Shown piece after piece: positions 55,830-64,000 of a DNA stretch of 64,000 bases; within the stretch, counting starts at the first letter, position 1; the number at the start of each line of letters is the position of its first letter. The notes under the pieces were generated by a model. The model saw only the letters and a program-made list of their open reading frames with translations. It had not been told where the DNA came from and did not search any database. A program made the position numbers and the translations under genes. Source of the DNA: Escherichia phage 4E8. The DNA is taken from sequence record OQ689734.1, one strand, 5' to 3'.

Positions 55830-55858
55830 AGCCCTCTGATAAACACAAGGGCTATAAG
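55830..55858 (-). repeat. conserved hairpin element, copy 2
   Basis: ATAGCCCT-loop-AGGGCTAT 7 nt after stop of 55865 gene; flanks (CTCACAT...GTTACT) conserved with copy 1. Confidence 0.5.
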
Positions 55859-55864
55859 TCGGTG

Positions 55865-56176
55865 TTACTTAACTGCTTCCATCATTTTACGAACGTTATC
55901 CACACCTTTCTGAATCAAAGGCAGGAACTCATCACCCAAATTAGAAGGCAGAAGACTTAAGCTTCCAGTCTTGATGCCACGACATGCTGACTCTACTTCT
56001 TCCGGAAACAATGTCATATTAAACCACGGAGATTTAATCTCTACTGTAAACCCGGGATTGTATCGGCTCTCACTGTGGTCAAACTCCAGATAAGTAACAC
56101 CAGGACAATGTTTTATTTGAGCACGAATTGTTACAGTAGGCTTACACATCACAAAAGAAGAAACAAACATAATCAC
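55865..56176 (-). CDS. hypothetical protein
   Basis: 103-aa ORF. Confidence 0.5.
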   Translation of the reverse strand: MIMFVSSFVMCKPTVTIRAQIKHCPGVTYLEFDHSESRYNPGFTVEIKSPWFNMTLFPEEVESACRGIKTGSLSLLPSNLGDEFLPLIQKGVDNVRKMMEAVK

Positions 56177-56430
56177 TTACCTTTATTGGTAATCACTGCA
56201 TCAGGGATAAGGACTACAGGAAGATCTGAAGCGAGTTTCATAACCTGATTAGTACTTAAACTAAGTACAACTGTTCCAGAATCTTTCTTGTTTGACTCTG
56301 TTACGTGTGGAGTAAATAAACCAACAACCAAATAGTGACCGAAGCGTGTAGCTTTAACTTGGAACACGTCCCCAAGCTTTAAATCACCCACTGTAAGATC
56401 TGGGTCTTTCAACTCAAGATCAATCTTCAT
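56173..56430 (-). CDS. small protein, GDVF-family paralog E
   Basis: LKLGDVF...YLVV...VVLSLSTNQVMKL. Confidence 0.5.
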   Translation of the reverse strand: MKIDLELKDPDLTVGDLKLGDVFQVKATRFGHYLVVGLFTPHVTESNKKDSGTVVLSLSTNQVMKLASDLPVVLIPDAVITNKGK

Positions 56431-56680
56431 CTTTAACCTCGATGTTAGTTATGTGAAGATCACTGCGTACTTGGCAAACTTCATCCCGTTTAAAAGGCAT
56501 GAGCTTTCCAGTTACCACATCAACACAGTTGACATAATTGTCTGCGTACAATGAGTCGGTTCTAATGTAAAGGGACTCTTTACGCTCAAATAGAACCCCC
56601 GGCTTTATATTATTTAAGCGAAGCATTGTACGGTTAGATTTAATATTAACCTTCACTGTTGATCTCCTGTTGCTTGGCAA
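56420..56680 (-). CDS. small protein, GDVF-family paralog F
   Basis: IKPGVLF...LYIRT...VNCVDVVTGKLMPF; real start probably an internal GTG/ATG (track ORF overlaps upstream gene). Confidence 0.45.
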   Translation of the reverse strand: MPSNRRSTVKVNIKSNRTMLRLNNIKPGVLFERKESLYIRTDSLYADNYVNCVDVVTGKLMPFKRDEVCQVRSDLHITNIEVKDED

Positions 56681-56951
56681 TAGCTACTTGCAAGTCTTCA
56701 TTAGCACGAGCAAGGCGTTTAACTTCATGATCAAGGCTGATAAGGCGCTTATTTCTGTCTTCAACCTGTTCAACCAGATCAAAAAGCTTAACTCTCACCT
56801 TTTCTGTATACATCTCCTCTACTTTAACCAGACTGTTATAGCGACGTTCCCAGCTGGCTGCTTTGTTTCTTAGGATAATAAAACCCAACACAGCAACAGT
56901 TAACAGCAATACAAGTAAGAATTTATATACTTCAATACTCATCTTATTCAC
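56646..56951 (-). CDS. TM-anchored coiled-coil protein (FtsB/spanin-like topology)
   Basis: N-terminal TM helix FLLVLLLTVAVLGFIIL followed by heptad-rich helical region. Confidence 0.5.
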   Translation of the reverse strand: MNKMSIEVYKFLLVLLLTVAVLGFIILRNKAASWERRYNSLVKVEEMYTEKVRVKLFDLVEQVEDRNKRLISLDHEVKRLARANEDLQVAIAKQQEINSEG

Positions 56952-57140
56952 CTTTAAAGTAAGTTATTATAAGAAATATTATTTAGAATTATTATTTTCT
57001 AAACATAATTTCTATAATCTTTTTCAGAGGTCTATATACAGTCATTACCCCTAGTTCCAAATTGCTTCCACTTTTCAGCGACTATTTTCTAAGTGGCTGT
57101 TTTATAAGGGAATTTAGTTTGTCAATTCTGGCACCTATGA

Positions 57141-57527
57141 TTATTCATGAGCATCATTATTGAACACTAAATCACCACAATACATCGGATTGGTGTACCA
57201 CTTTGGCACCCCCTCGCTCTTACTCTGAAAGTAGGTTCCACTATACAGAGGAACATAGTTCTTCTTGAGAGCACGTCTAGCAAGCTGCTCGCTTTCTCTT
57301 ATGGCTTGTTTAGTCATAGGATTATCATCACGAATCAGCTTTACGTAACGCTTAAAAGGTTTCTCCTTTCTAAGTAATACAGGAATCCACTCAAACTGGT
57401 TCTTTTGTCTTATCACCTGTTCAGCGGTCAGTTTTCGTTGTGACATTCTGTTTATTACGGTATCCGCAACTAATGCTTTACATGCGGTTGGCTGATTCCC
57501 TGCCTCATAATAAATAGTCAATGTCAA
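57141..57527 (-). CDS. SleB/CwlJ-type cell-wall hydrolase domain protein
   Basis: IYYEAGNQPTACKALVADTVINR matches the Hydrolase_2 (SleB) N-terminal signature. Confidence 0.6.
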   Translation of the reverse strand: MTLTIYYEAGNQPTACKALVADTVINRMSQRKLTAEQVIRQKNQFEWIPVLLRKEKPFKRYVKLIRDDNPMTKQAIRESEQLARRALKKNYVPLYSGTYFQSKSEGVPKWYTNPMYCGDLVFNNDAHE

Positions 57528-57660
57528 AAGTAGCTGGGCCGTTGTTATCAGAACTTACTACCCCCCTATTCTATGGGTACAAAAAAGCCCCAGCCGTAGC
57601 CGGGGCAAACCTGAAAGCAATACATGACTATTGCAGTAAAAACACTCGTAAATGCGCTTA

Positions 57661-57691
57661 CGGCAACGACAAAAGCCGCTCAAAGGCGGCT
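57661..57691 (-). terminator. terminator-like hairpin (minus strand)
   Basis: agccgc-tttgag-gcggct hairpin followed by TTTTGTCGTT on minus strand. Confidence 0.4.
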
Positions 57692-57767
57692 ATGTGGAAG
57701 CTTCAAATGGGGAGAGGGCACGGGGCACAGAGAAACGTCACAGTAGCTGCAAAGAAGCCTCTCGCTA

Positions 57768-58211
57768 TTACTTAACTCTCGCTTCCTTGATGGGGTCAAT
57801 GTATTTTTCGACTCCCCATTTGTGCTGACTGTCAGCGTAGAAAACATCAGGTGCACACTGGCTTGTTTTAGGGAAGGCTTGCGGGTCTTTGGTGCTCCCT
57901 TTAAACTTCTGTTTACCACGGGTGCGACCATTACAGAAGATTTCTAACTTCTTCTCTTCTTCTGTTTTAGCACCCCCGCTCTGTAACAAAGATCGTTTAT
58001 GATCAGCTAACAATAACGCATCAGCACGATGAACGCGATGGCCTACACGTTTTGCCACACTAGAAGGAATATGAGATTCAGCCTCAGCCCTTGCAGCACG
58101 ACGTTTTAAACTACGCTTACTAACGTGATTAGTTGCCTTCGGTTTCTCTTTCTCCAGTTCAGAGATAGCAAAACAACGCCCGCCCTTCATGCTGATTTTA
58201 GATTTAGCCAC
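57768..58211 (-). CDS. basic hypothetical protein
   Basis: 147-aa Lys/Arg-rich ORF. Confidence 0.5.
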   Translation of the reverse strand: MAKSKISMKGGRCFAISELEKEKPKATNHVSKRSLKRRAARAEAESHIPSSVAKRVGHRVHRADALLLADHKRSLLQSGGAKTEEEKKLEIFCNGRTRGKQKFKGSTKDPQAFPKTSQCAPDVFYADSQHKWGVEKYIDPIKEARVK

Positions 58212-58280
58212 AATCTTATTCCTTTTAGTGATAAATTATATCGGGCAAGCCCATCGTAGGGATAGGCTTGAACAAACAAT

Positions 58281-58490
58281 TCAATCAAGTAAACTAAATG
58301 ACTTCCAACTGCGCAGCAGGATTGTACCATCATCCAGAGTCACGCATAACTTTAACAGTTTCTTGTTAGCACTGCTCACCGTTGTAATTTGTCCGGTTGT
58401 GCATTTACCTTTATTGCTATAAAGATATATAACACGACGACCTAACAGACGAGATGGAGCTTTCTTAAATTCAGATATATTAGTTATCAT
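58281..58490 (-). CDS. hypothetical protein
   Basis: 69-aa ORF; ATGA overlap with upstream gene. Confidence 0.45.
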   Translation of the reverse strand: MITNISEFKKAPSRLLGRRVIYLYSNKGKCTTGQITTVSSANKKLLKLCVTLDDGTILLRSWKSFSLLD

Positions 58491-58711
58491 GATGCTTGAT
58501 ACCTTTGAATGTGTTCAATACGGGTTGATTGAGCAAATGACGCTTTAACAGCCATTTTCCTAACTTCTTCTTTACGCTGGTTAGTGTGTACAGTATCCCA
58601 GTGGTTGTTATCACGTTGGCGCTGTAATATCTTACTACATTTGCGATGGTTTCCCGTGCTGCGATGTTTCTCACAAATAGGACACTTGCCAAAATTGCTA
58701 CTGAATATCAT
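58487..58711 (-). CDS. small zinc-finger-like protein
   Basis: CPICEKH...HRKC; chosen over overlapping frame 58480-58692 because both ends make 4-nt coupled overlaps. Confidence 0.45.
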   Translation of the reverse strand: MIFSSNFGKCPICEKHRSTGNHRKCSKILQRQRDNNHWDTVHTNQRKEEVRKMAVKASFAQSTRIEHIQRYQAS

Positions 58712-58935
58712 TTTCTCAATCCCAACTTTCTTAAGATACGGCCTAACGTTGTTTCTTGCGTGATAATATAGCTGATCGCTTCACGTTCCAACGTTTCAAC
58801 CTTCATTGGCGACGGATACCATTCACCGGTAATAATACATTTACATTCAACGCCATACTTTTTAGATAGGCGGTAATGTTGACCGTTGACAAGGTTTCTA
58901 TAAACCGTGGTATGCGTAATTAACATGATCATCAC
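58708..58935 (-). CDS. hypothetical protein
   Basis: 75-aa ORF. Confidence 0.45.
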   Translation of the reverse strand: MMIMLITHTTVYRNLVNGQHYRLSKKYGVECKCIITGEWYPSPMKVETLEREAISYIITQETTLGRILRKLGLRK

Positions 58936-59037
58936 CTTTGATTAAATTCTTTGATTAATGCACTGAATCAATGCACTGATAAAAGAAAAGGCGCTACCCG
59001 TTAAGATAGCGCCTTATGTTTATTTAGATTGTCTTAC

Positions 59038-59946
59038 TTATGCCACCTGACGTGCCGCCATAATCTCAGCCGCTTTACGCAATACTTCTTCCTCTTCTGC
59101 TTTCGCCGCTTGTTCGGTACGGGTAGCAACCGTTGAAGAGATACGACCGCGCAGATTATCTAACTTTTCCTGCATAGCTGTAACAGCTTTTTCCATTTCA
59201 TCAGCGTATGAATCGAGTGATTCTAATTCCTTGCTTGATGCGTTCATCAGATAATCGTCAGAGATCGCTACCGTTGAAGCCGTGACTTTCTTGATGAGTG
59301 AATCAAAGGACTTTTTAACTTTGCCGACTTCTTCACTCAGGGCGATAGTATTGTCACTGGTAGCGCCGTTACGCTCATCAGCCAACAATTTTGCTTCAAT
59401 ACGGATTGCATTCAATCGTTCGACCAGTGCATAAATATCCTGATTAAAATCCTCTTTAACTTTCGCCGGGATTTGCAGGTGTGCCGCGACGTTATCGTTA
59501 CAGCCTTTAAAGAAGTTAGGATTATCGACTTCAATTTCATCACCCTTTGCAAATTTTTCGAAAGAGTTTGACCAGCGAGCGCGGTTTTGTTCCATTTTCG
59601 CCTTGATTTGCGATTCTTTCGCACCTTCTTTCGCTTTCGCCTCACCTTCCAGATTAATCCACTTCTTACGACCGTTCGCCGCCTCGGTGTTATATTTGAT
59701 AGGAGTTAAGAAGGTAATTGCAGTGGCGATCACATCCATATCGCGGAAACGTTCAGTTAACAGAAAATCGATCGCTGCCTGCAATACGTCTAACTTTTTA
59801 CCGTTGCTGCGGAAGTGCTGCAAATGACCTAACAAGAAGTTAGAAACATCTTGCTTAATCGCCGCGTTATTGCTACGGATATTGTTAGCCAGTGCATTAA
59901 AACCGGATTCGTTAACCAGATTAAAGATTTTAGCCATGATATTCAC
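59038..59946 (-). CDS. hypothetical protein, 302 aa, compositionally distinct
   Basis: long ORF with visibly GC-richer codon usage than the rest of the window; Ala/Lys/Glu-rich helical C-terminal half. Confidence 0.6.
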   Translation of the reverse strand: MNIMAKIFNLVNESGFNALANNIRSNNAAIKQDVSNFLLGHLQHFRSNGKKLDVLQAAIDFLLTERFRDMDVIATAITFLTPIKYNTEAANGRKKWINLEGEAKAKEGAKESQIKAKMEQNRARWSNSFEKFAKGDEIEVDNPNFFKGCNDNVAAHLQIPAKVKEDFNQDIYALVERLNAIRIEAKLLADERNGATSDNTIALSEEVGKVKKSFDSLIKKVTASTVAISDDYLMNASSKELESLDSYADEMEKAVTAMQEKLDNLRGRISSTVATRTEQAAKAEEEEVLRKAAEIMAARQVA

Positions 59947-61265
59947 CTTTCAATTGTAAGGGCACTATGCCCCGCTCTCTATGAGCTTTTTAAGCCATTA
60001 TTGACTTATCGATAACCACTCATTTTTAAGTAGTTATTGATAAGTAAGGGAGTCTTATCAGGAGTTAACCTTGCTCCCTTATTATCTGCGATGTTTCATC
60101 TGGTATCTTTAATTAGTCGCTATAAACTAAGCCGACCTGATAGCGATGATCAATCATCACAATAAGGCAGTGTGCCCGACTCTAATTAGTTACTTTATTG
60201 TAACCGTCGGTAATATCGTTTACTTTGCTTTCGCTCCCGCCTATCCTTTTATACTAACTCTCAATCGCTAACCATCGCCCACTACGGGAGGTTATTGCGA
60301 AAGAGTCATTAGCCGTCTAATATTCCGACGTTTTATATCTTTCGGCAAGTTTACTACATAACCCGACTATGTACTTTCATCTTATGATGAATCTCAAGCC
60401 GTTCACATCGTAAACGTTCACACTAAACCTTATTGTTAAATAGCAATTTGCCACTTTTTAACCATTCCCCGCCGCTCTCAATTGAGCGTTAATTCGTCGG
60501 GCTTGTCTACCCTGATTCACTTCTTCCACCGTAGCGCCTTGTTAGCGATGGCCGCCGCTACCCTTTAACCGTGGGCGATTAGCTTAAGCCTTTGCGTGCA
60601 CTCGATGAGTCCGCTTATCAGTGGTGACGTTTCCAGTTAAGGGATTGTGAGATTGTTTTCTCTGATAGTCTAGAGAATCTCACACCGTTTTATCTGGTAT
60701 GCTTTCCGATGGTTATTATCATCAAGCATATTCAACCGATATAGGAGAATGTTTAAATTGTTAAAGAGCGGTAAATCTATCAACGTGCTTTCTCACGTTA
60801 TGCAACTGTTAGCCGTTGTTACGCTTTTCACTGAAGCGGTGATTTGCTTAAGTGTGCTCATTATGAATCATGCTGATTTAGCTGTCAACCGCTTTTTTAA
60901 TCTTTTTCGTCGTTCCCTTTATTGGGAGGATATATCAATCAGCTATATTTGATTGAAGATTAAGCGGTAATGCTTAACCCATGATTCATATTTTTAAAGA
61001 GCATTTAGCCTTTTATAGTGTCTGCTAATCACTGCATCATTAAAGGCTTACTTATTCATTAACGGGGCGCCTAAGCCCGAACTACTCGCTGCACTATGTG
61101 CCACCTTTCCCGCGATACGTTGATTTGGGAACTAGTTAACGTTGTTTTGTTAACTTGTGGTTAGTATGGACTACTTTAACCACGTTTGCAACCTCTTTTT
61201 TATCATCTTCTTTTATTCCGTTCCCTTATCTCGCTTGAATCTATGCGAAAGGGCAAGATGATAAG

Positions 61266-61281
61266 TTTTTAAAGAGCGGGG
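61266..61281 (+). repeat. TTTTTAAAGAGCGGGG direct repeat, copy 3 of 4
   Basis: exact 16-mer repeated at 61376; shorter versions at 60761 (TTAAAGAGCGG) and 60991 (TTTTTAAAGAGC). Confidence 0.5.
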
Positions 61282-61375
61282 ATCTTTTGATTCATCGCTG
61301 AATATGTGCTCATTATACGTTAGGCTTTTCAGTTGTCAACATTCTTTTCAGAATGTTTTTCACTTTCCAGCCTAC

Positions 61376-61391
61376 TTTTTAAAGAGCGGGG
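61376..61391 (+). repeat. TTTTTAAAGAGCGGGG direct repeat, copy 4 of 4
   Basis: identical to 61266-61281. Confidence 0.5.
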
Positions 61392-61620
61392 CAATTTCTT
61401 GCCTTGTATGTTTTACATCGTACCCGATGAAATGAAGTATACACTAATCAGATGAGGTTGCAATAGGGTAAAGCAAATTATTTTAAACTTTTTTGAAAGG
61501 TGGGAAGTATAAGAGAATGCGCGCGGGATAACATACGCAAAACAGGCTGTAAATCACTTTCTAACGTCCTGTAAGCCATCCTAACGAGCTAAAAGGGAGT
61601 AAGGCATACAATCACCCTAT

Positions 61621-61647
61621 AAATGAAAAAAGCCTCACAGTGAGGCT
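61621..61647 (-). terminator. rho-independent terminator (minus strand)
   Basis: agcctcac-t-gtgaggct hairpin followed by TTTTTTCATTT on minus strand, downstream of 61725 gene. Confidence 0.55.
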
Positions 61648-61724
61648 CATAGGGAGGTTTTAAAGCATTAAGTAAATTATGACCATAGGCATGACTACGG
61701 CACAATATAGGAGAAAGATTAAGC

Positions 61725-62102
61725 CTATGGATTTGCACATTGACCATTACCGGATGCTATTTCATTCATTGACTCATCAAACAAGGTTAGGGATGAGCGC
61801 ATCAGATGATCAATCATGACTTGTTTACCAGTGGTTTCATTTACCAGTTGAATAGTTTTATCATATGATTGTACATGATCGAAATCATTTACATGTAAAA
61901 TAATAACCTTAGGTGACTGTTTACCGGTATCATAATTTTCTATAAGATAGGTACATTGCAAGCCTTCGATAGTCTTAGGCGTGAATGTTGCAGCCTTAAC
62001 ACTACCTATAGACGATAGGAGAACGCCCAGCAGGAGAACGACAAGGAAAAAGCCCACGAATACTTTTACTACAAATTTGATAATACCCATGATAATAATC
62101 AC
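61725..62102 (-). CDS. membrane-anchored hypothetical protein
   Basis: N-terminal TM segment FVGFFLVVLLLGVLL. Confidence 0.5.
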   Translation of the reverse strand: MIIIMGIIKFVVKVFVGFFLVVLLLGVLLSSIGSVKAATFTPKTIEGLQCTYLIENYDTGKQSPKVIILHVNDFDHVQSYDKTIQLVNETTGKQVMIDHLMRSSLTLFDESMNEIASGNGQCANP

Positions 62103-62187
62103 CTATAGTTAGAGAATATAAGAATAAAGCATATCAGCGACAAATAGCGCCACTGTAGCGACGAACAAGCAACGCCAAAAATAATCA

Positions 62188-62457
62188 TTAATCATCGTTG
62201 CTACCCTCGCCAAAAAAGGATATACTGATTTGTTCCACTTCTTCCAGCGACAGGAGAATCCCGCGTTGGGCTAAATACTTTCCAACAGTCAGATAGTCCT
62301 GTACTAAACAGACAACAGGAAAGCGGATAGTCTGTATTTCACCCTTAGAAAGAAAGGATAGATAGCCAACGTCGACTGATTCATCAAAGGATAACGTAAC
62401 GCCACCGTAATTATGCGTGTCAATCAATGCAATAGTTTCATTTCCCATTCGTAACAT
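62188..62457 (-). CDS. hypothetical protein
   Basis: 89-aa ORF. Confidence 0.45.
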   Translation of the reverse strand: MLRMGNETIALIDTHNYGGVTLSFDESVDVGYLSFLSKGEIQTIRFPVVCLVQDYLTVGKYLAQRGILLSLEEVEQISISFFGEGSNDD

Positions 62458-62704
62458 CCTCGATTAGCCCGTGATTGAGCAGGTTAGCCAGCGATAATCC
62501 ACCGTCAAAATAAATTGAGCGGAAATCATCGCGGTTAATTTCAAGATCAGCAAACATTAGCCAATTTTTAGCCTGCTTAAAATCCATCTTGCAAAAAGTG
62601 ATAATAGGAACTGTTAACTGACCATCTAGGGTGTTAAACATAATTTCGGAACGACCGACAAAACAAGAAAAACCATTAGCAAACTTAACTTCTTTGATAG
62701 CCAT
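62438..62704 (-). CDS. hypothetical protein
   Basis: 88-aa ORF. Confidence 0.45.
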   Translation of the reverse strand: MAIKEVKFANGFSCFVGRSEIMFNTLDGQLTVPIITFCKMDFKQAKNWLMFADLEINRDDFRSIYFDGGLSLANLLNHGLIEDVTNGK

Positions 62705-62730
62705 TATTTACACTCCCAAAAATAGGTTAT

Positions 62731-63222
62731 TTACTTACTAGCCTTAATGCAGTTGGCTAAATTAACGTGAACGGTATAAACAGCGTTATCAGCGTTATTG
62801 TAAACAGTAGTCGCAATCATCGACTGATTAACCGGGCCATAACTCACTAGATTGGTTACAGCTTTAACGTCTTCGTAACGTTGTACAGTGCCAAATGTAA
62901 CCATATCCGCATCGTTATCAGTACGCTTGAGAACTAGATCACTGTTAGGCTGATTGTCTAGTGTTTTGGTACTAACGACCAGACCATCACGGGAAACGTT
63001 ACTAAATTTAACCTTTAAAACGACTTGATTGGTGTCACTATCCGCACCGTTGCAAATCATCCAACCCTTATCAATGGAACTAGCGAAAACGTCAGCGGCA
63101 TTAGTTGCAGGAGCAGGACTAGCGATAGCCTTATCAGAAAAAGAAGTTACCAGTGCACTGACACCGATGACTGTAACCAGCGCATAACTTGCCAGATTAA
63201 CAACCTGCATCACTTTCGCCAT
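62731..63222 (-). CDS. secreted/periplasmic hypothetical protein
   Basis: signal-peptide-like N-terminus YALVTVIGVSALVTSFS...AIASPA. Confidence 0.55.
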   Translation of the reverse strand: MAKVMQVVNLASYALVTVIGVSALVTSFSDKAIASPAPATNAADVFASSIDKGWMICNGADSDTNQVVLKVKFSNVSRDGLVVSTKTLDNQPNSDLVLKRTDNDADMVTFGTVQRYEDVKAVTNLVSYGPVNQSMIATTVYNNADNAVYTVHVNLANCIKASK

Positions 63223-63399
63223 TTTTGTTACTCCTTAGATAGAATCAATTAACTATCGCCACTATATATTAAAGGAAAGGACTGTCAACCATTTATTTTC
63301 TAACTTTCTCATAACTCACTGAATCAAAAAGGAATTTAATTTACTAAACTTTCTTACTCAGAGCATAGTTTACTACTTCTATTGTTACACTATCACATA

Positions 63400-63930
63400 A
63401 CGCCAGACATACGGGGAGAACAGGCCGCATAAACAGACCAACGGGGCAACGGTACAACGTAACCAGCACGGGGGAAGGATAAACGGGTGGGTTATAATGT
63501 AATGTTGTTACATGATGCTATTGTTAGCGGCTTGCGGAAGTAATATACCAATCAAATAATTCACTCATCAAACTATCACGCACTGCGTGCAACGCTGAAA
63601 AAGAAAGTAATAAAAGAAACAATTAAAAGAATGATAATAACATCAATTATTAAACCCAATCTAACTATTACATACATCATTAATCCACTCATAATCATTA
63701 CACTAATCATTATTTACATTCAAACTATGGGGCGATGTGATAGGTAGTATTAGTCTACCCTTTACTAGTTCGTCATCAGTTCGTTATCAGGGCTGGCCTC
63801 TCATACCCTCCCAATTAATGAGTGAAATAAACGGGGTGAAAGTAATGGGTACTATATTACACGGGGCATTATTAACACGGGATAGGACACGGGGGAAGGT
63901 TAGGACGTTCAGGCATGTTCACGGGGAAAG
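63400..63930 (+). repeat. ORF-free region with dispersed CACGGGG / AACGGGG direct repeats
   Basis: CACGGGGGAAGG at ~63468 and ~63888, CACGGGGAAAGG ~63912, AACGGGGCAACGG ~63442, ACGGGGAGAAC ~63410. Confidence 0.45.
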
Positions 63931-64000
63931 GAGGAAGTGAGGGAATAGCCACAATTTTAATGAGGACTCCCCCTTTTTAGGAAACGCGCGGCGAGCACCT

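What the first reader, a model, noticed from the sequence alone, without database searches (positions are those of the whole stretch)
63223..64000. ORF-free right end with CACGGGG-type repeats, possibly a genome terminus or packaging region
The last ~780 bp have no ORF of 60 aa or more and carry at least eight dispersed copies of (A/C)ACGGGG(G)(A/C)A, including CACGGGGGAAGG twice (~63468 and ~63888). Reiterated G-rich motifs next to early genes resemble terminal-repeat or packaging-signal regions and early-promoter arrays in other podophages. The window may end close to a physical genome end.
Basis: seen in the sequence. Interest (0 to 1): 0.5.

Follow-up and report, generated by a model that had tools for sequence, protein, structure and literature searches.

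The report
Phage genome end with repeat arrays
The last 780 bases are the right physical end of a phiEco32-like coliphage genome, holding a roughly 206-base terminal repeat, early promoters and two arrays of a short G-rich motif that probably guide genome cutting and packaging; this layout is ordinary for the group, though the arrays appear undescribed.

Summary
The window is the last 64 kb of a phiEco32-like podophage (Gordonclarkvirinae). Base 64000 aligns with the last base of the phiEco32 and YF01 genomes, whose 193-bp direct terminal repeats (DTR) were mapped experimentally. By homology the DTR copy here is 63795-64000, about 206 bp.

ACGGG occurs 9 times in 63411-63925, all on the + strand (0.18 expected; no local shuffle reaches 9). 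The copies form cluster A (63411-63487) and cluster B (63831-63925, inside the DTR). They sit on a roughly 15-bp lattice and are separated by an AT-rich spacer.

All 13 relatives examined have the same two-array layout. The motif changes by lineage: ACGGGG, ATGGGTA, TATGGATA and ACTATG. Where the outer cluster could be read clearly (ACGGGG- and ATGGGTA-type phages), it carries the same motif as the DTR cluster. Motif cores are better conserved than the spacers between them.

The motifs are not promoters. Separate sigma-70-type promoters lie on the minus strand.

T7 has the same layout (CCTAAAG inside its DTR plus the adjacent SRL array). I infer that the arrays are protein-binding lattices for concatemer-junction processing and packaging. 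The binder is not identified: the array type does not track the small terminase. This is a new member of a known kind, of modest interest.

The parts
62731..63222 (-). Last gene of the genome and first gene of the rightmost early operon. It encodes 163 aa with a signal-peptide-like N-terminus.
   Evidence: ORF. It matches phrog_21410 and phrog_36409 with no Pfam hit. Homologues are the last gene in phiEco32, YF01, IME267 and FH3.
63261..63288 (-). Sigma-70-type early promoter, TTGACA-16-TATAGT (11 of 12 consensus positions), driving the terminal operon leftwards.
   Evidence: Found. Both hexamers lie in blocks that are invariant or nearly so across 13 relatives. The SU10 paper places one promoter upstream of the last CDS (PMC4281155).
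63409..63492 (+). Cluster A: four oriented copies of the motif, with the A of ACGGG at 63411, 63441, 63468 and 63483. Spacing is 30, 27 and 15 bp, and GC is 56%.
   Evidence: Every ACGGG-type relative has 3-4 copies at about 29-30 bp spacing. In AnnaHegner_Bas87 it is replaced by an ATGGGTA-type array.
63486..63531 (.). A 46-bp segment present in the window, EP335, KarlSchell and AnnaHegner but absent from Kuravirus. It contains TATAATGTAATG and the palindrome ATGTAA-N5-TTACAT.
   Evidence: Alignments. It has 2 mismatches to the gp36 promoter motif TAATGTATA, so it is not counted as a promoter.
63542..63571 (-). Candidate second early promoter, TTGATG-18-TATATT with TG before the -10 element. 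Cluster A lies between it and the promoter at 63261-63288.
   Evidence: Found (9 of 12 positions). The block TGCGG.A.TAATATACCA is conserved in all relatives. It is unproven.
63496..63794 (.). AT-rich spacer (32% GC) between cluster A and the DTR. It holds conserved blocks: ACGCTGAAAAAGAAAG at 63592-63607, TACATACATCATTAATCCACTCATAATCAT, and CAAACTATGGGG.
   Evidence: Composition and conservation. An ACRCTGAAAAG-like A-tract block also occurs in 7-11, P59 and PJNS034.
63795..64000 (+). Right copy of the direct terminal repeat, about 206 bp by homology. It starts GGCCTCTCATACCC and ends ...GGCGAGCACCT at the physical end.
   Evidence: The phiEco32 DTR is its last 193 nt and is identical at both ends. 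YF01 carries a repeat_region annotation. The boundary is confirmed by the SU7 and IME267 record starts and the Paul record end. The window is longer than phiEco32 by one extra motif unit, shared with EP335, KarlSchell and KBNP1711.
63829..63930 (+). Cluster B: motif array inside the DTR, at 63831, 63845 (ATGGG), 63861, 63877 (ACGGGA), 63889 and 63921, on a roughly 15-bp lattice. The + strand here has 42 G and 14 C.
   Evidence: Identity to the Kuravirus clade is 78% at the cores and 45% at non-core positions.
63955..64000 (+). Conserved terminal block TTTTAATGAGGACTCCCCCTTTTTAGGAAACGCGCGGCGAGCACCT, the likely terminase cleavage or recognition site at the right DTR boundary.
   Evidence: Nearly invariant in all relatives. 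A CCCCCTTTT core is retained in 7-11, Proteus phage P59 and PJNS034. It is the 'highly conserved region ~130-170' of the DTR noted in PMC9965538.

Best explanation
The region is the right physical end of a linear phiEco32-like (Gordonclarkvirinae) phage genome.

Reading inward from the end it contains: (i) one copy of a short direct terminal repeat, 63795-64000, whose last 45 bp are a family-wide conserved block ending at the cut site; (ii) inside that repeat, an array of 5-6 copies of an oriented motif A(C/T)GGG(G/T)(A/G) on a roughly 15-bp lattice; (iii) a 300-bp AT-rich spacer; (iv) a second array of the same motif; (v) one or two sigma-70 promoters that fire leftwards into the first early operon.

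Inferred mechanism. After replication the genomes are joined head to tail through the repeat, as in T7. The motif arrays inside the repeat and next to it act as a binding lattice for a multimeric DNA-binding protein, most likely the terminase holoenzyme through its small subunit (the phi32_6 family). That protein marks the concatemer junction and positions the two strand cuts at the repeat boundaries, both of which read ..GCT|AG(C/G)C.., so that the repeat can be duplicated and one genome length packaged.

What is shown: the terminus and DTR identity by homology, the arrays with their orientation, lattice and conservation, and the change of motif between lineages. What is inferred: protein binding, the identity of the binder, and the role in packaging.
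For: Terminus
- The window's last base aligns with the last base of phiEco32 and YF01.
- The phiEco32 DTR is verified as identical at both ends, and the YF01 DTR is annotated.
- EP335, KarlSchell and other circularly collapsed records continue straight from this base into the left-end unique sequence AGGCACACTCGGTCAAAT....
- The left DTR boundary coincides with the starts of the SU7 and IME267 records and the end of the Paul record.
- Published mapping of 193-bp DTRs and blunt ends: PMC9965538 and PMC4281155.

Arrays
- Strong enrichment confined to one strand.
- The same two-array layout is present in 13 relatives.
- Cores are more conserved than spacers.
- Units are gained and lost between lineages.
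- A spacing of about 15 bp recurs in the window, KarlSchell, AnnaHegner, 7-11 and P59.

Link to the terminus rather than to any gene
- In distant phages that share the terminase (TerL about 60% identical, TerS about 50%), an array of a different short motif lies just upstream of the same CCCCCTTTT terminal block. The motif is TATGGATA in 7-11, ACTATG in P59, and TCACACGG/GGGTA in PJNS034.
- In the ACGGGG- and ATGGGTA-type phages, both clusters of a genome use the same motif.

Precedent
- In T7, checked here, CCTAAAG occurs 3 times inside the 160-bp DTR and at least 12 more times at 13-bp spacing just outside it. The early promoters A1-A3 follow at 498-750.

TerS candidate
- phi32_6 lies directly before TerL. 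Its best PDB matches are the PaP3-type small terminases (E about 0.1).
- The same assignment is made in PMC9965538.
- PaP3 TerS binds its own end sequence specifically in vitro (PMC7672466).
Against: - No binding data exist.
- The array type does not follow the small terminase. IME267 has an AnnaHegner-type TerS (E33/T36/T40) and is 92-97% AnnaHegner-like across TerS, TerL and the replication genes, yet it carries ACGGGG-type arrays in both clusters.
- TerS is 92% identical between phages with different motifs.
- Cluster A lies about 300 bp from the DTR, not adjacent to it as the T7 SRR array does.
- The function of the T7 repeats is itself unsettled (my own knowledge).
- The left end of this genome is outside the window. 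The repeat at both ends, and its exact 206-bp length, are therefore inferred from relatives.
Confidence: 0.55

Rival explanations
1. Replication origin. The two arrays would be iterons for an initiator and would flank an AT-rich unwinding region. Nearby early promoters would activate it by transcription.
For: - The anatomy fits: oriented short repeats on both sides of a 300-bp, 32% GC spacer with A-tracts.
- Conserved blocks in the spacer persist even where the motif has changed.
- Promoter-like sites lie next to it.
- The motif in 7-11 is 7-8 of 9 identical to the DnaA box TGTGGATAA.
Against: - One array lies inside the DTR, so it is duplicated at the far end without the AT-rich spacer.
- No initiator-like protein was found among the adjacent genes.
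- The replication genes of IME267 are AnnaHegner-like while its arrays are not.
- The window motif matches a DnaA box at only 4 of 9 positions, and only two 1-mismatch DnaA-like 9-mers occur in the region.
- In all lineages the arrays track the terminal block, which fits an end function better.
Confidence: 0.13
2. Sites for a factor encoded by the neighbouring terminal early operon, or carried in the virion. Such a factor would act at genome entry or early transcription, for example in end protection, ejection pausing or control of the first promoters, and not in packaging.
For: - The arrays are inherited as a block with the last five genes, not with the terminase. In IME267 the swapped block is the last 2.6 kb plus the DTR. 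In the window it is the last 11 kb.
- The 89-aa product of 62188-62457 is 90-96% identical in all ACGGGG-type phages but 42% identical in AnnaHegner.
- The arrays lie between the end and the inward-facing promoters, as in the leading end of T7.
Against: - The co-inheritance can be plain physical linkage.
- None of the five products has a recognisable DNA-binding domain.
- These genes have no detectable homologues in the flanking DNA fetched for 7-11 or P59, which nevertheless have arrays.
Confidence: 0.15
3. No sequence-specific reader. The arrays would be a minisatellite-like product of slippage and gene conversion, or would act only through DNA shape (phased G-tracts alternating with AT-rich steps, or R-loop or G-quadruplex formation when transcribed rightwards).
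For: - Unit gain and loss between lineages.
- All copies within an array are homogenised.
- Strong G over C strand bias (42 G to 14 C in cluster B).
- Viable phages combine one TerS type with either motif.
Against: - Cores are clearly better conserved than the bases between them (78% against 45%).
- The layout persists across two phage families while the surrounding sequence is unalignable.
- No stable local structure was found at the DTR boundary (z = -0.24).
- G-runs are 10-25 nt apart, which is poor for quadruplexes.
Confidence: 0.12
4. The G-rich motifs are themselves an array of early promoters.
For: They lie next to early genes at the genome end.
Against: - The motif has no -35 or -10 hexamer.
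- All copies point away from the early genes, which are on the minus strand.
- The promoter-like sites found are separate elements at 63288-63261 and 63571-63542.
- There is no good match to the phage sigma motif TAATGTATA in 63300-64000.
Confidence: 0.02

Closest known systems
Direct terminal repeats of phiEco32-like phages (phiEco32, SU10, Paul and YF01; 192-193 bp)
   Same: - The sequence is homologous over the whole repeat.
- It has the same end nucleotide, the same left boundary, the same conserved block at repeat positions about 130-170, and the same position next to the leftward early genes (PMC9965538, PMC4281155).
   Different: - It is about 13 bp longer because of one extra motif unit, shared with EP335, KarlSchell and KBNP1711.
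- The first CCCTTTTTTA of the SU10 internal repeat is not kept here (CACAATTTTA).
- The papers I could read describe the conserved block and the T-run repeat, but not the ACGGGG arrays or the second array outside the repeat.
Phage T7 terminal repeat with internal short repeats and the adjacent SRL/SRR arrays
   Same: - One short oriented motif occurs both inside the DTR and in a separate array outside it.
- Spacing is regular (13 bp in T7, about 15 bp here).
- Both sit between the genome end and inward-facing host-polymerase early promoters.
   Different: - There is no sequence similarity (CCTAAAG against ACGGGG).
- The T7 outer array starts 15 bp from the repeat; here it lies 300 bp away, across an AT-rich spacer.
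- T7 uses its own RNA polymerase in junction processing (noted in PMC4281155), which these phages lack.
Terminase recognition repeats: lambda cosB R sites, P1 pac hexamer clusters, SPP1 pacL/pacR boxes (from my own knowledge)
   Same: Several copies of a short motif are grouped in clusters around or beside the cleavage site, and are thought to load a multimeric small terminase.
   Different: - Those systems make cohesive ends or headful cuts, not an exact short terminal repeat.
- Binding by TerS is demonstrated there and untested here.
- Here the motif type does not covary with TerS.
Iteron-type origins (lambda ori, P4 ori/crr; from my own knowledge)
   Same: Oriented short repeats lie next to an AT-rich stretch, and there are two separate clusters of one motif, as in P4 ori and crr.
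   Different: No initiator gene was identified, one cluster is part of the terminal repeat, and the position is tied to the genome end in all lineages.

Membership tests
phiEco32-type short direct terminal repeat (genome end) | Sequence homology to an experimentally mapped DTR, ending at the same nucleotide | tested here: met
   Window 63795-64000 aligns with the 193-nt DTRs of phiEco32 and YF01, and all three end at the same column.
phiEco32-type short direct terminal repeat (genome end) | Conserved left boundary of the repeat | tested here: met
   The window's GGCCTCTC at 63795 corresponds to the first bases of the SU7 and IME267 records and to the base after the end of the Paul record.
phiEco32-type short direct terminal repeat (genome end) | The same sequence is present at the left end of the same genome | not testable with these tools
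   The window starts about 12.5 kb from the left end, and no record of this exact phage is in the collections.
phiEco32-type short direct terminal repeat (genome end) | Defined physical ends in virion DNA | not testable with these tools
   This needs reads or virion DNA. It has been shown for relatives only (PMC9965538, PMC4281155).
T7-like repeat arrays at the terminal repeat (intra-DTR repeats plus SRL/SRR) | One short motif in a single orientation, both inside the DTR and in an array outside it | tested here: met
   Cluster B lies inside the DTR and cluster A outside it. All copies are on the + strand and none on the - strand.
T7-like repeat arrays at the terminal repeat (intra-DTR repeats plus SRL/SRR) | Outer array directly adjoining the DTR | tested here: not met
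   Cluster A ends at about 63492 and the DTR starts at 63795. In T7 the gap is about 15 bp.
T7-like repeat arrays at the terminal repeat (intra-DTR repeats plus SRL/SRR) | Sequence relatedness to the T7 repeats | tested here: not met
   The motifs differ: CCTAAAG in T7 and A(C/T)GGG(G/T) here.
Small-terminase recognition sites | Specific binding by the small terminase | not testable with these tools
   This needs biochemistry. TerS is encoded outside the window.
Small-terminase recognition sites | Motif specificity changes together with the small terminase | tested here: not met
   IME267 combines an AnnaHegner-type TerS with ACGGGG-type arrays. TerS is 92% identical across motif types. Across the larger distance to 7-11 both differ (TerS 50% identical), which is uninformative.
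Iteron-type replication origin | Repeats next to an AT-rich unwinding stretch | tested here: met
   Clusters A and B flank a 299-bp stretch of 32% GC.
Iteron-type replication origin | A cognate initiator gene, or host DnaA boxes | tested here: not met
   The five adjacent genes have no Rep or initiator family match. The window motif matches the DnaA box at 4 of 9 positions, and only two 1-mismatch DnaA-like 9-mers occur in the region.
Sigma-70 early promoter array | -35 and -10 hexamers within each repeat, oriented towards the early genes | tested here: not met
   The promoter-like sites are separate and lie on the minus strand. The motifs are all on the + strand.
Known structured RNA | Match to an Rfam family | tested here: not met
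   No match in 63000-64000 at E up to 1.

The most novel reading that the evidence does not exclude
The arrays may be read by a specificity factor that has not been recognised, rather than by the terminase. This factor would be encoded in the terminal five-gene early operon, or packaged in the virion. Array and reader would then form a separate end module that recombines independently of TerS and TerL. That would explain why phages with near-identical terminases carry ACGGGG-type or ATGGGTA-type arrays.
Probability: 0.12. Interest if true: 0.6.

Novelty: new member of a known kind. Interest (0 to 1): 0.3.

Why it matters
How phages with short exact terminal repeats recognise the concatemer junction and duplicate the repeat is still poorly understood, even for T7.

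This group offers a clean comparative handle:
- a fixed terminal block;
- two cut sites with the same short sequence;
- motif arrays that have switched identity several times, while the terminase stayed almost unchanged in at least one natural recombinant.

That makes array-swap and binding experiments straightforward to design. For annotation, it fixes the genome end and the repeat for this phage. It also shows that the ORFs called across this region in some relatives' records are probably spurious.

Tried and rejected
- **TerS covariation.** Residues 33/36/40 (NNQ against ETT) looked linked to the motif type in four phages. IME267 breaks the link.
- **Recombination breakpoint at cluster A.** The first BLAST table suggested one. 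Direct comparison shows instead that the whole right-hand 11 kb is KarlSchell-like.
- **'Terminase' gene near the end (61725-62102).** It is a 125-aa protein with a hydrophobic N-terminus, a PHROG label only and no Pfam match. I do not treat it as a terminase.
- **Phage sigma (gp36) promoter at 63493.** It has 2 mismatches to TAATGTATA, and 1-mismatch matches across the window are at chance level.
- **Structured RNA.** None found.
- **Hairpin at the DTR boundary.** None found.
- **DnaA boxes.** The resemblance is good only in 7-11, not in the window.
- **EcoN5 and IMEP8 loci.** They turned out to carry an internal copy of the promoter and 163-aa gene cassette, not the terminus.
- **IMG/VR scan with the terminal block.** It gave only 4 loci.
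- **Primary phiEco32 papers.** Savalia 2008 and Pavlova 2012 are not held in the library. I cannot exclude that they mention the repeats.

Full report
**What the window is.** The last 20 kb and the last 778 bp match about 100 phiEco32-like coliphages of the Gordonclarkvirinae. The genome is a mosaic. Positions 2872-52073 are 92-98% identical to AnnaHegner_Bas87, and 52790-64000 are 87-97% identical to KarlSchell_Bas89. The window begins in the tail-fibre genes, about 12.5 kb from the left end. The terminase genes and the left end are therefore outside it.

**The terminus.**
- An alignment of 63200-64000 with the right ends of phiEco32 and YF01 ends in the same column for all three (...GGCGAGCACCT against ...GGCGAGCGGCT).
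- The last 193 nt of phiEco32 are identical to its first 193 nt. YF01 carries a 'direct terminal repeat' annotation over the same stretch.
- These ends were mapped experimentally: by restriction digests, primer walking and subcloning for phiEco32, by full-length nanopore reads for YF01, and by sharp read drop-off with blunt ends for SU10 (PMC9965538 and PMC4281155).
- Records assembled as circles (EP335, KarlSchell and others) run from this base directly into AGG(C/T)(A/C)CACTCGGTCAAAT..., which is the sequence that follows the left repeat in phiEco32.
- The left boundary of the repeat maps to window 63795 (GGCCTCTCATACCC). The SU7 and IME267 records begin at exactly that point, and the Paul record stops one base before it.
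- I therefore read 63795-64000 as the right copy of a roughly 206-bp terminal repeat. It is longer than the phiEco32 repeat by one motif unit, which EP335, KarlSchell and KBNP1711 share.
- Both boundaries lie at ..GCT|AG(C/G)C.. in nearly all relatives. In FH3, for example, the boundaries read GTGCT|AGCC and CGGCT|AGCC. This suggests two cuts at the same short sequence; that is inference.

**The repeats.**
- ACGGG occurs 9 times on the + strand and never on the - strand in 63400-64000. From the rest of the window 0.18 are expected, and no local dinucleotide shuffle out of 5000 reaches 9.
- A weight matrix trained only on Kuravirus sites puts 6 of its top 9 hits in the whole window into this region.
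- The copies form two clusters. Cluster A is at 63411, 63441, 63468 and 63483. Cluster B is at 63831, 63861, 63877, 63889 and 63921, with a degenerate ATGGG at 63845.
- Gaps are close to 15 or 30 bp. For cluster B, R = 0.92 at a period of 15.0. The same period appears in KarlSchell (14.5) and AnnaHegner (15.0), and 15-bp gaps recur in 7-11 and P59.
- Between the clusters lies a 299-bp stretch of 32% GC with conserved blocks.

**Comparative evidence.**
- All 13 related termini examined have the same two-cluster layout in one orientation.
- In cluster B the motif cores are 78% identical between the window and the Kuravirus clade, against 45% for the other positions. Against the two sister phages the figures are 98% and 80%.
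- AnnaHegner_Bas87 and SU7 carry a different motif, (A/T)(T/C)GGGTA(A/G)G. AnnaHegner has it in both clusters at 14-15 bp spacing; for SU7 only the DTR array was seen.
- In phages of another family that share the terminase (TerL about 60% identical, TerS about 50%), an array of yet another short motif sits just upstream of a recognisable CCCCCTTTT terminal block. The motif is T(G/A)TGGATA(G/A) in Salmonella phage 7-11, ACTATG(G/C)A in Proteus phage P59, and TCACACGG with GGGTA in PJNS034.
- The arrays therefore track the genome end, not any particular gene. They are under selection at the cores, and in the ACGGGG- and ATGGGTA-type phages both clusters of a genome use the same motif. This is the signature of binding sites for a sequence-reading protein.

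**What they are not.**
- They are not promoters. The sigma-70-type sites are separate, on the minus strand: TTGACA-16-TATAGT at 63288-63261, conserved in all relatives, and a weaker extended -10 candidate at 63571-63542. This agrees with the single promoter upstream of the last gene reported for SU10 and with the validated right-end early promoters of 7-11.
- There is no good phage-sigma motif, no Rfam match, no hairpin at the boundary, and no conserved ORF. The 67-aa GTG-start ORF at 63737-63940 is absent from most relatives.

**Mechanism.**
- The nearest worked example is T7, which I checked directly. CCTAAAG occurs three times inside its 160-bp repeat and at least twelve more times at 13-bp spacing at positions 175-340. 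The host-polymerase promoters A1-A3 follow at 498-750.
- The layout here is the same, mirrored at the right end. By analogy with T7, and with terminase recognition repeats in lambda, P1 and SPP1 (my own knowledge), I take the arrays to be a lattice that loads a multimeric protein at the concatemer junction and positions the cuts at the two boundaries.
- The obvious candidate is the small terminase. The phi32_6 family lies directly before TerL. Its best PDB matches are PaP3-type small terminases (E about 0.1). PMC9965538 makes the same call. PaP3 TerS binds its end sequence specifically in vitro.

**The negative test.** If TerS read the variable positions of the motif, TerS and array type should change together. 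They do not.
- IME267 is 92-97% AnnaHegner-like over TerS, TerL and the replication genes, and it has the AnnaHegner-type TerS residues. Yet it carries ACGGGG-type arrays in both clusters.
- What is swapped in IME267 is a block made of the last 2.6 kb, the intergenic region and the repeat. In the window the KarlSchell-like block is the last 11 kb.
- The five genes in that block therefore co-vary with the array type. The 89-aa product of 62188-62457 is 90-96% identical in all ACGGGG-type phages and 42% identical in AnnaHegner. This may be plain linkage. None of the five has a DNA-binding signature, and they have no detectable homologues in the flanking DNA fetched for 7-11 or P59.
- Two readings remain. 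TerS may read only the shared part of the motif (A-Y-G-G), possibly helped by its AT-hook-like GRPKGSRGK segment.

**Rivals.** An origin with iterons fits the anatomy, but not the placement of one array inside the repeat or the lack of an initiator. A role in entry or early control fits the linkage, but has no candidate protein. A purely structural or neutral array fits the homogenisation, but not the core-specific conservation across families.

**Verdict.** The terminal repeat is already known for this phage group. The motif arrays are not mentioned in the papers I could read, but they are a close analogue of the T7 repeats. This is a new member of a known kind, of modest interest.

Noticed in passing
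window 59850-61720: An ORF-poor 1.8-kb spacer inside the early arm. A terminator-like hairpin on the minus strand (61648-61630) follows the 125-aa gene. Consensus sigma-70 promoters then lie on the minus strand at 61339-61312 (12 of 12 positions) and 60888-60860 (11 of 12). This matches the promoter-rich spacer between genes 120 and 121 described for SU10. It is left unannotated in the AnnaHegner, KarlSchell and IME267 records. No Rfam family matches it.
   Followed up: partly
window 52073-52790 (breakpoint); whole window: The genome is a mosaic. The left 50 kb of the window is AnnaHegner_Bas87-like (92-98% identity) and the right 11 kb is KarlSchell_Bas89/EP335-like (87-97%). The tail-fibre region at the window start is also divergent.
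   Followed up: partly
window 61725-63222 (minus strand): The five small terminal genes are inherited as a block with the repeat arrays and the DTR, independently of the terminase (IME267 compared with AnnaHegner). The 89-aa acidic product of 62188-62457 is unusually conserved (90-96% identity) among all ACGGGG-type phages, but only 42% identical in AnnaHegner.
   Followed up: partly
window 61725-62102 (minus strand): A 125-aa protein with a hydrophobic N-terminal segment is labelled 'terminase' through phrog_13168, and this label appears in several GenBank records. It has no Pfam support, so the label looks like a propagated mis-annotation.
   Followed up: partly
L021/L022 (Salmonella phage 7-11, record positions about 850-1000): The terminal array motif of 7-11, T(G/A)TGGATA(G/A), is 7-8 of 9 identical to the E. 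coli DnaA box TGTGGATAA. The 7-11 record is also not cut at its physical ends: a block resembling the phiEco32 terminal block lies near record position 1200.
   Followed up: no
L004 1697-2170 and its homologues in the KarlSchell (L020), AnnaHegner (L018), E20-1 (L028), IME267 (L029), SU7 (L030), 7-11 (L022) and P59 (L026) loci: The putative small terminase carries an AT-hook-like segment, GRPKGSRGK (GRPKGSRNK in 7-11 and P59, GRPRGSRGK in IME267). It is otherwise conserved across these phages. This may matter for how the protein reads arrays whose cores are each preceded by AT-rich bases.
   Followed up: no
window 63223-63382; L023 and L024 (EcoN5, IMEP8): The promoter and leader of the 163-aa gene, together with the gene itself, occur at an internal position in EcoN5 and IMEP8, with further genes between them and the end. 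This cassette appears to move as a unit.
   Followed up: no
window 63767-63788: A tandem 11-nt duplication, AGTTCGTCATC/AGTTCGTTATC, lies immediately before the DTR boundary. It is not present in the relatives aligned.
   Followed up: no
L009 +300 to +530; L028 and L029 +230 to +420 (left-end unique region, outside the window): Beyond the left repeat, relatives carry further short repeats: GCCTTAAC/GGCCTTTATG, CCCCTTTAT, TTATCAGAGG, and more A(C/T)GGG copies. 7-11, P59 and PJNS034 have TGGCAT and TATCAGTGTA repeats in the same place. This may be a third array on the other side of the concatemer junction.
   Followed up: no
window 54418-54491 (minus strand): A single tRNA gene (Rfam RF00005, 59 bits), at the position of the tRNA-Arg annotated in relatives.
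   Followed up: no
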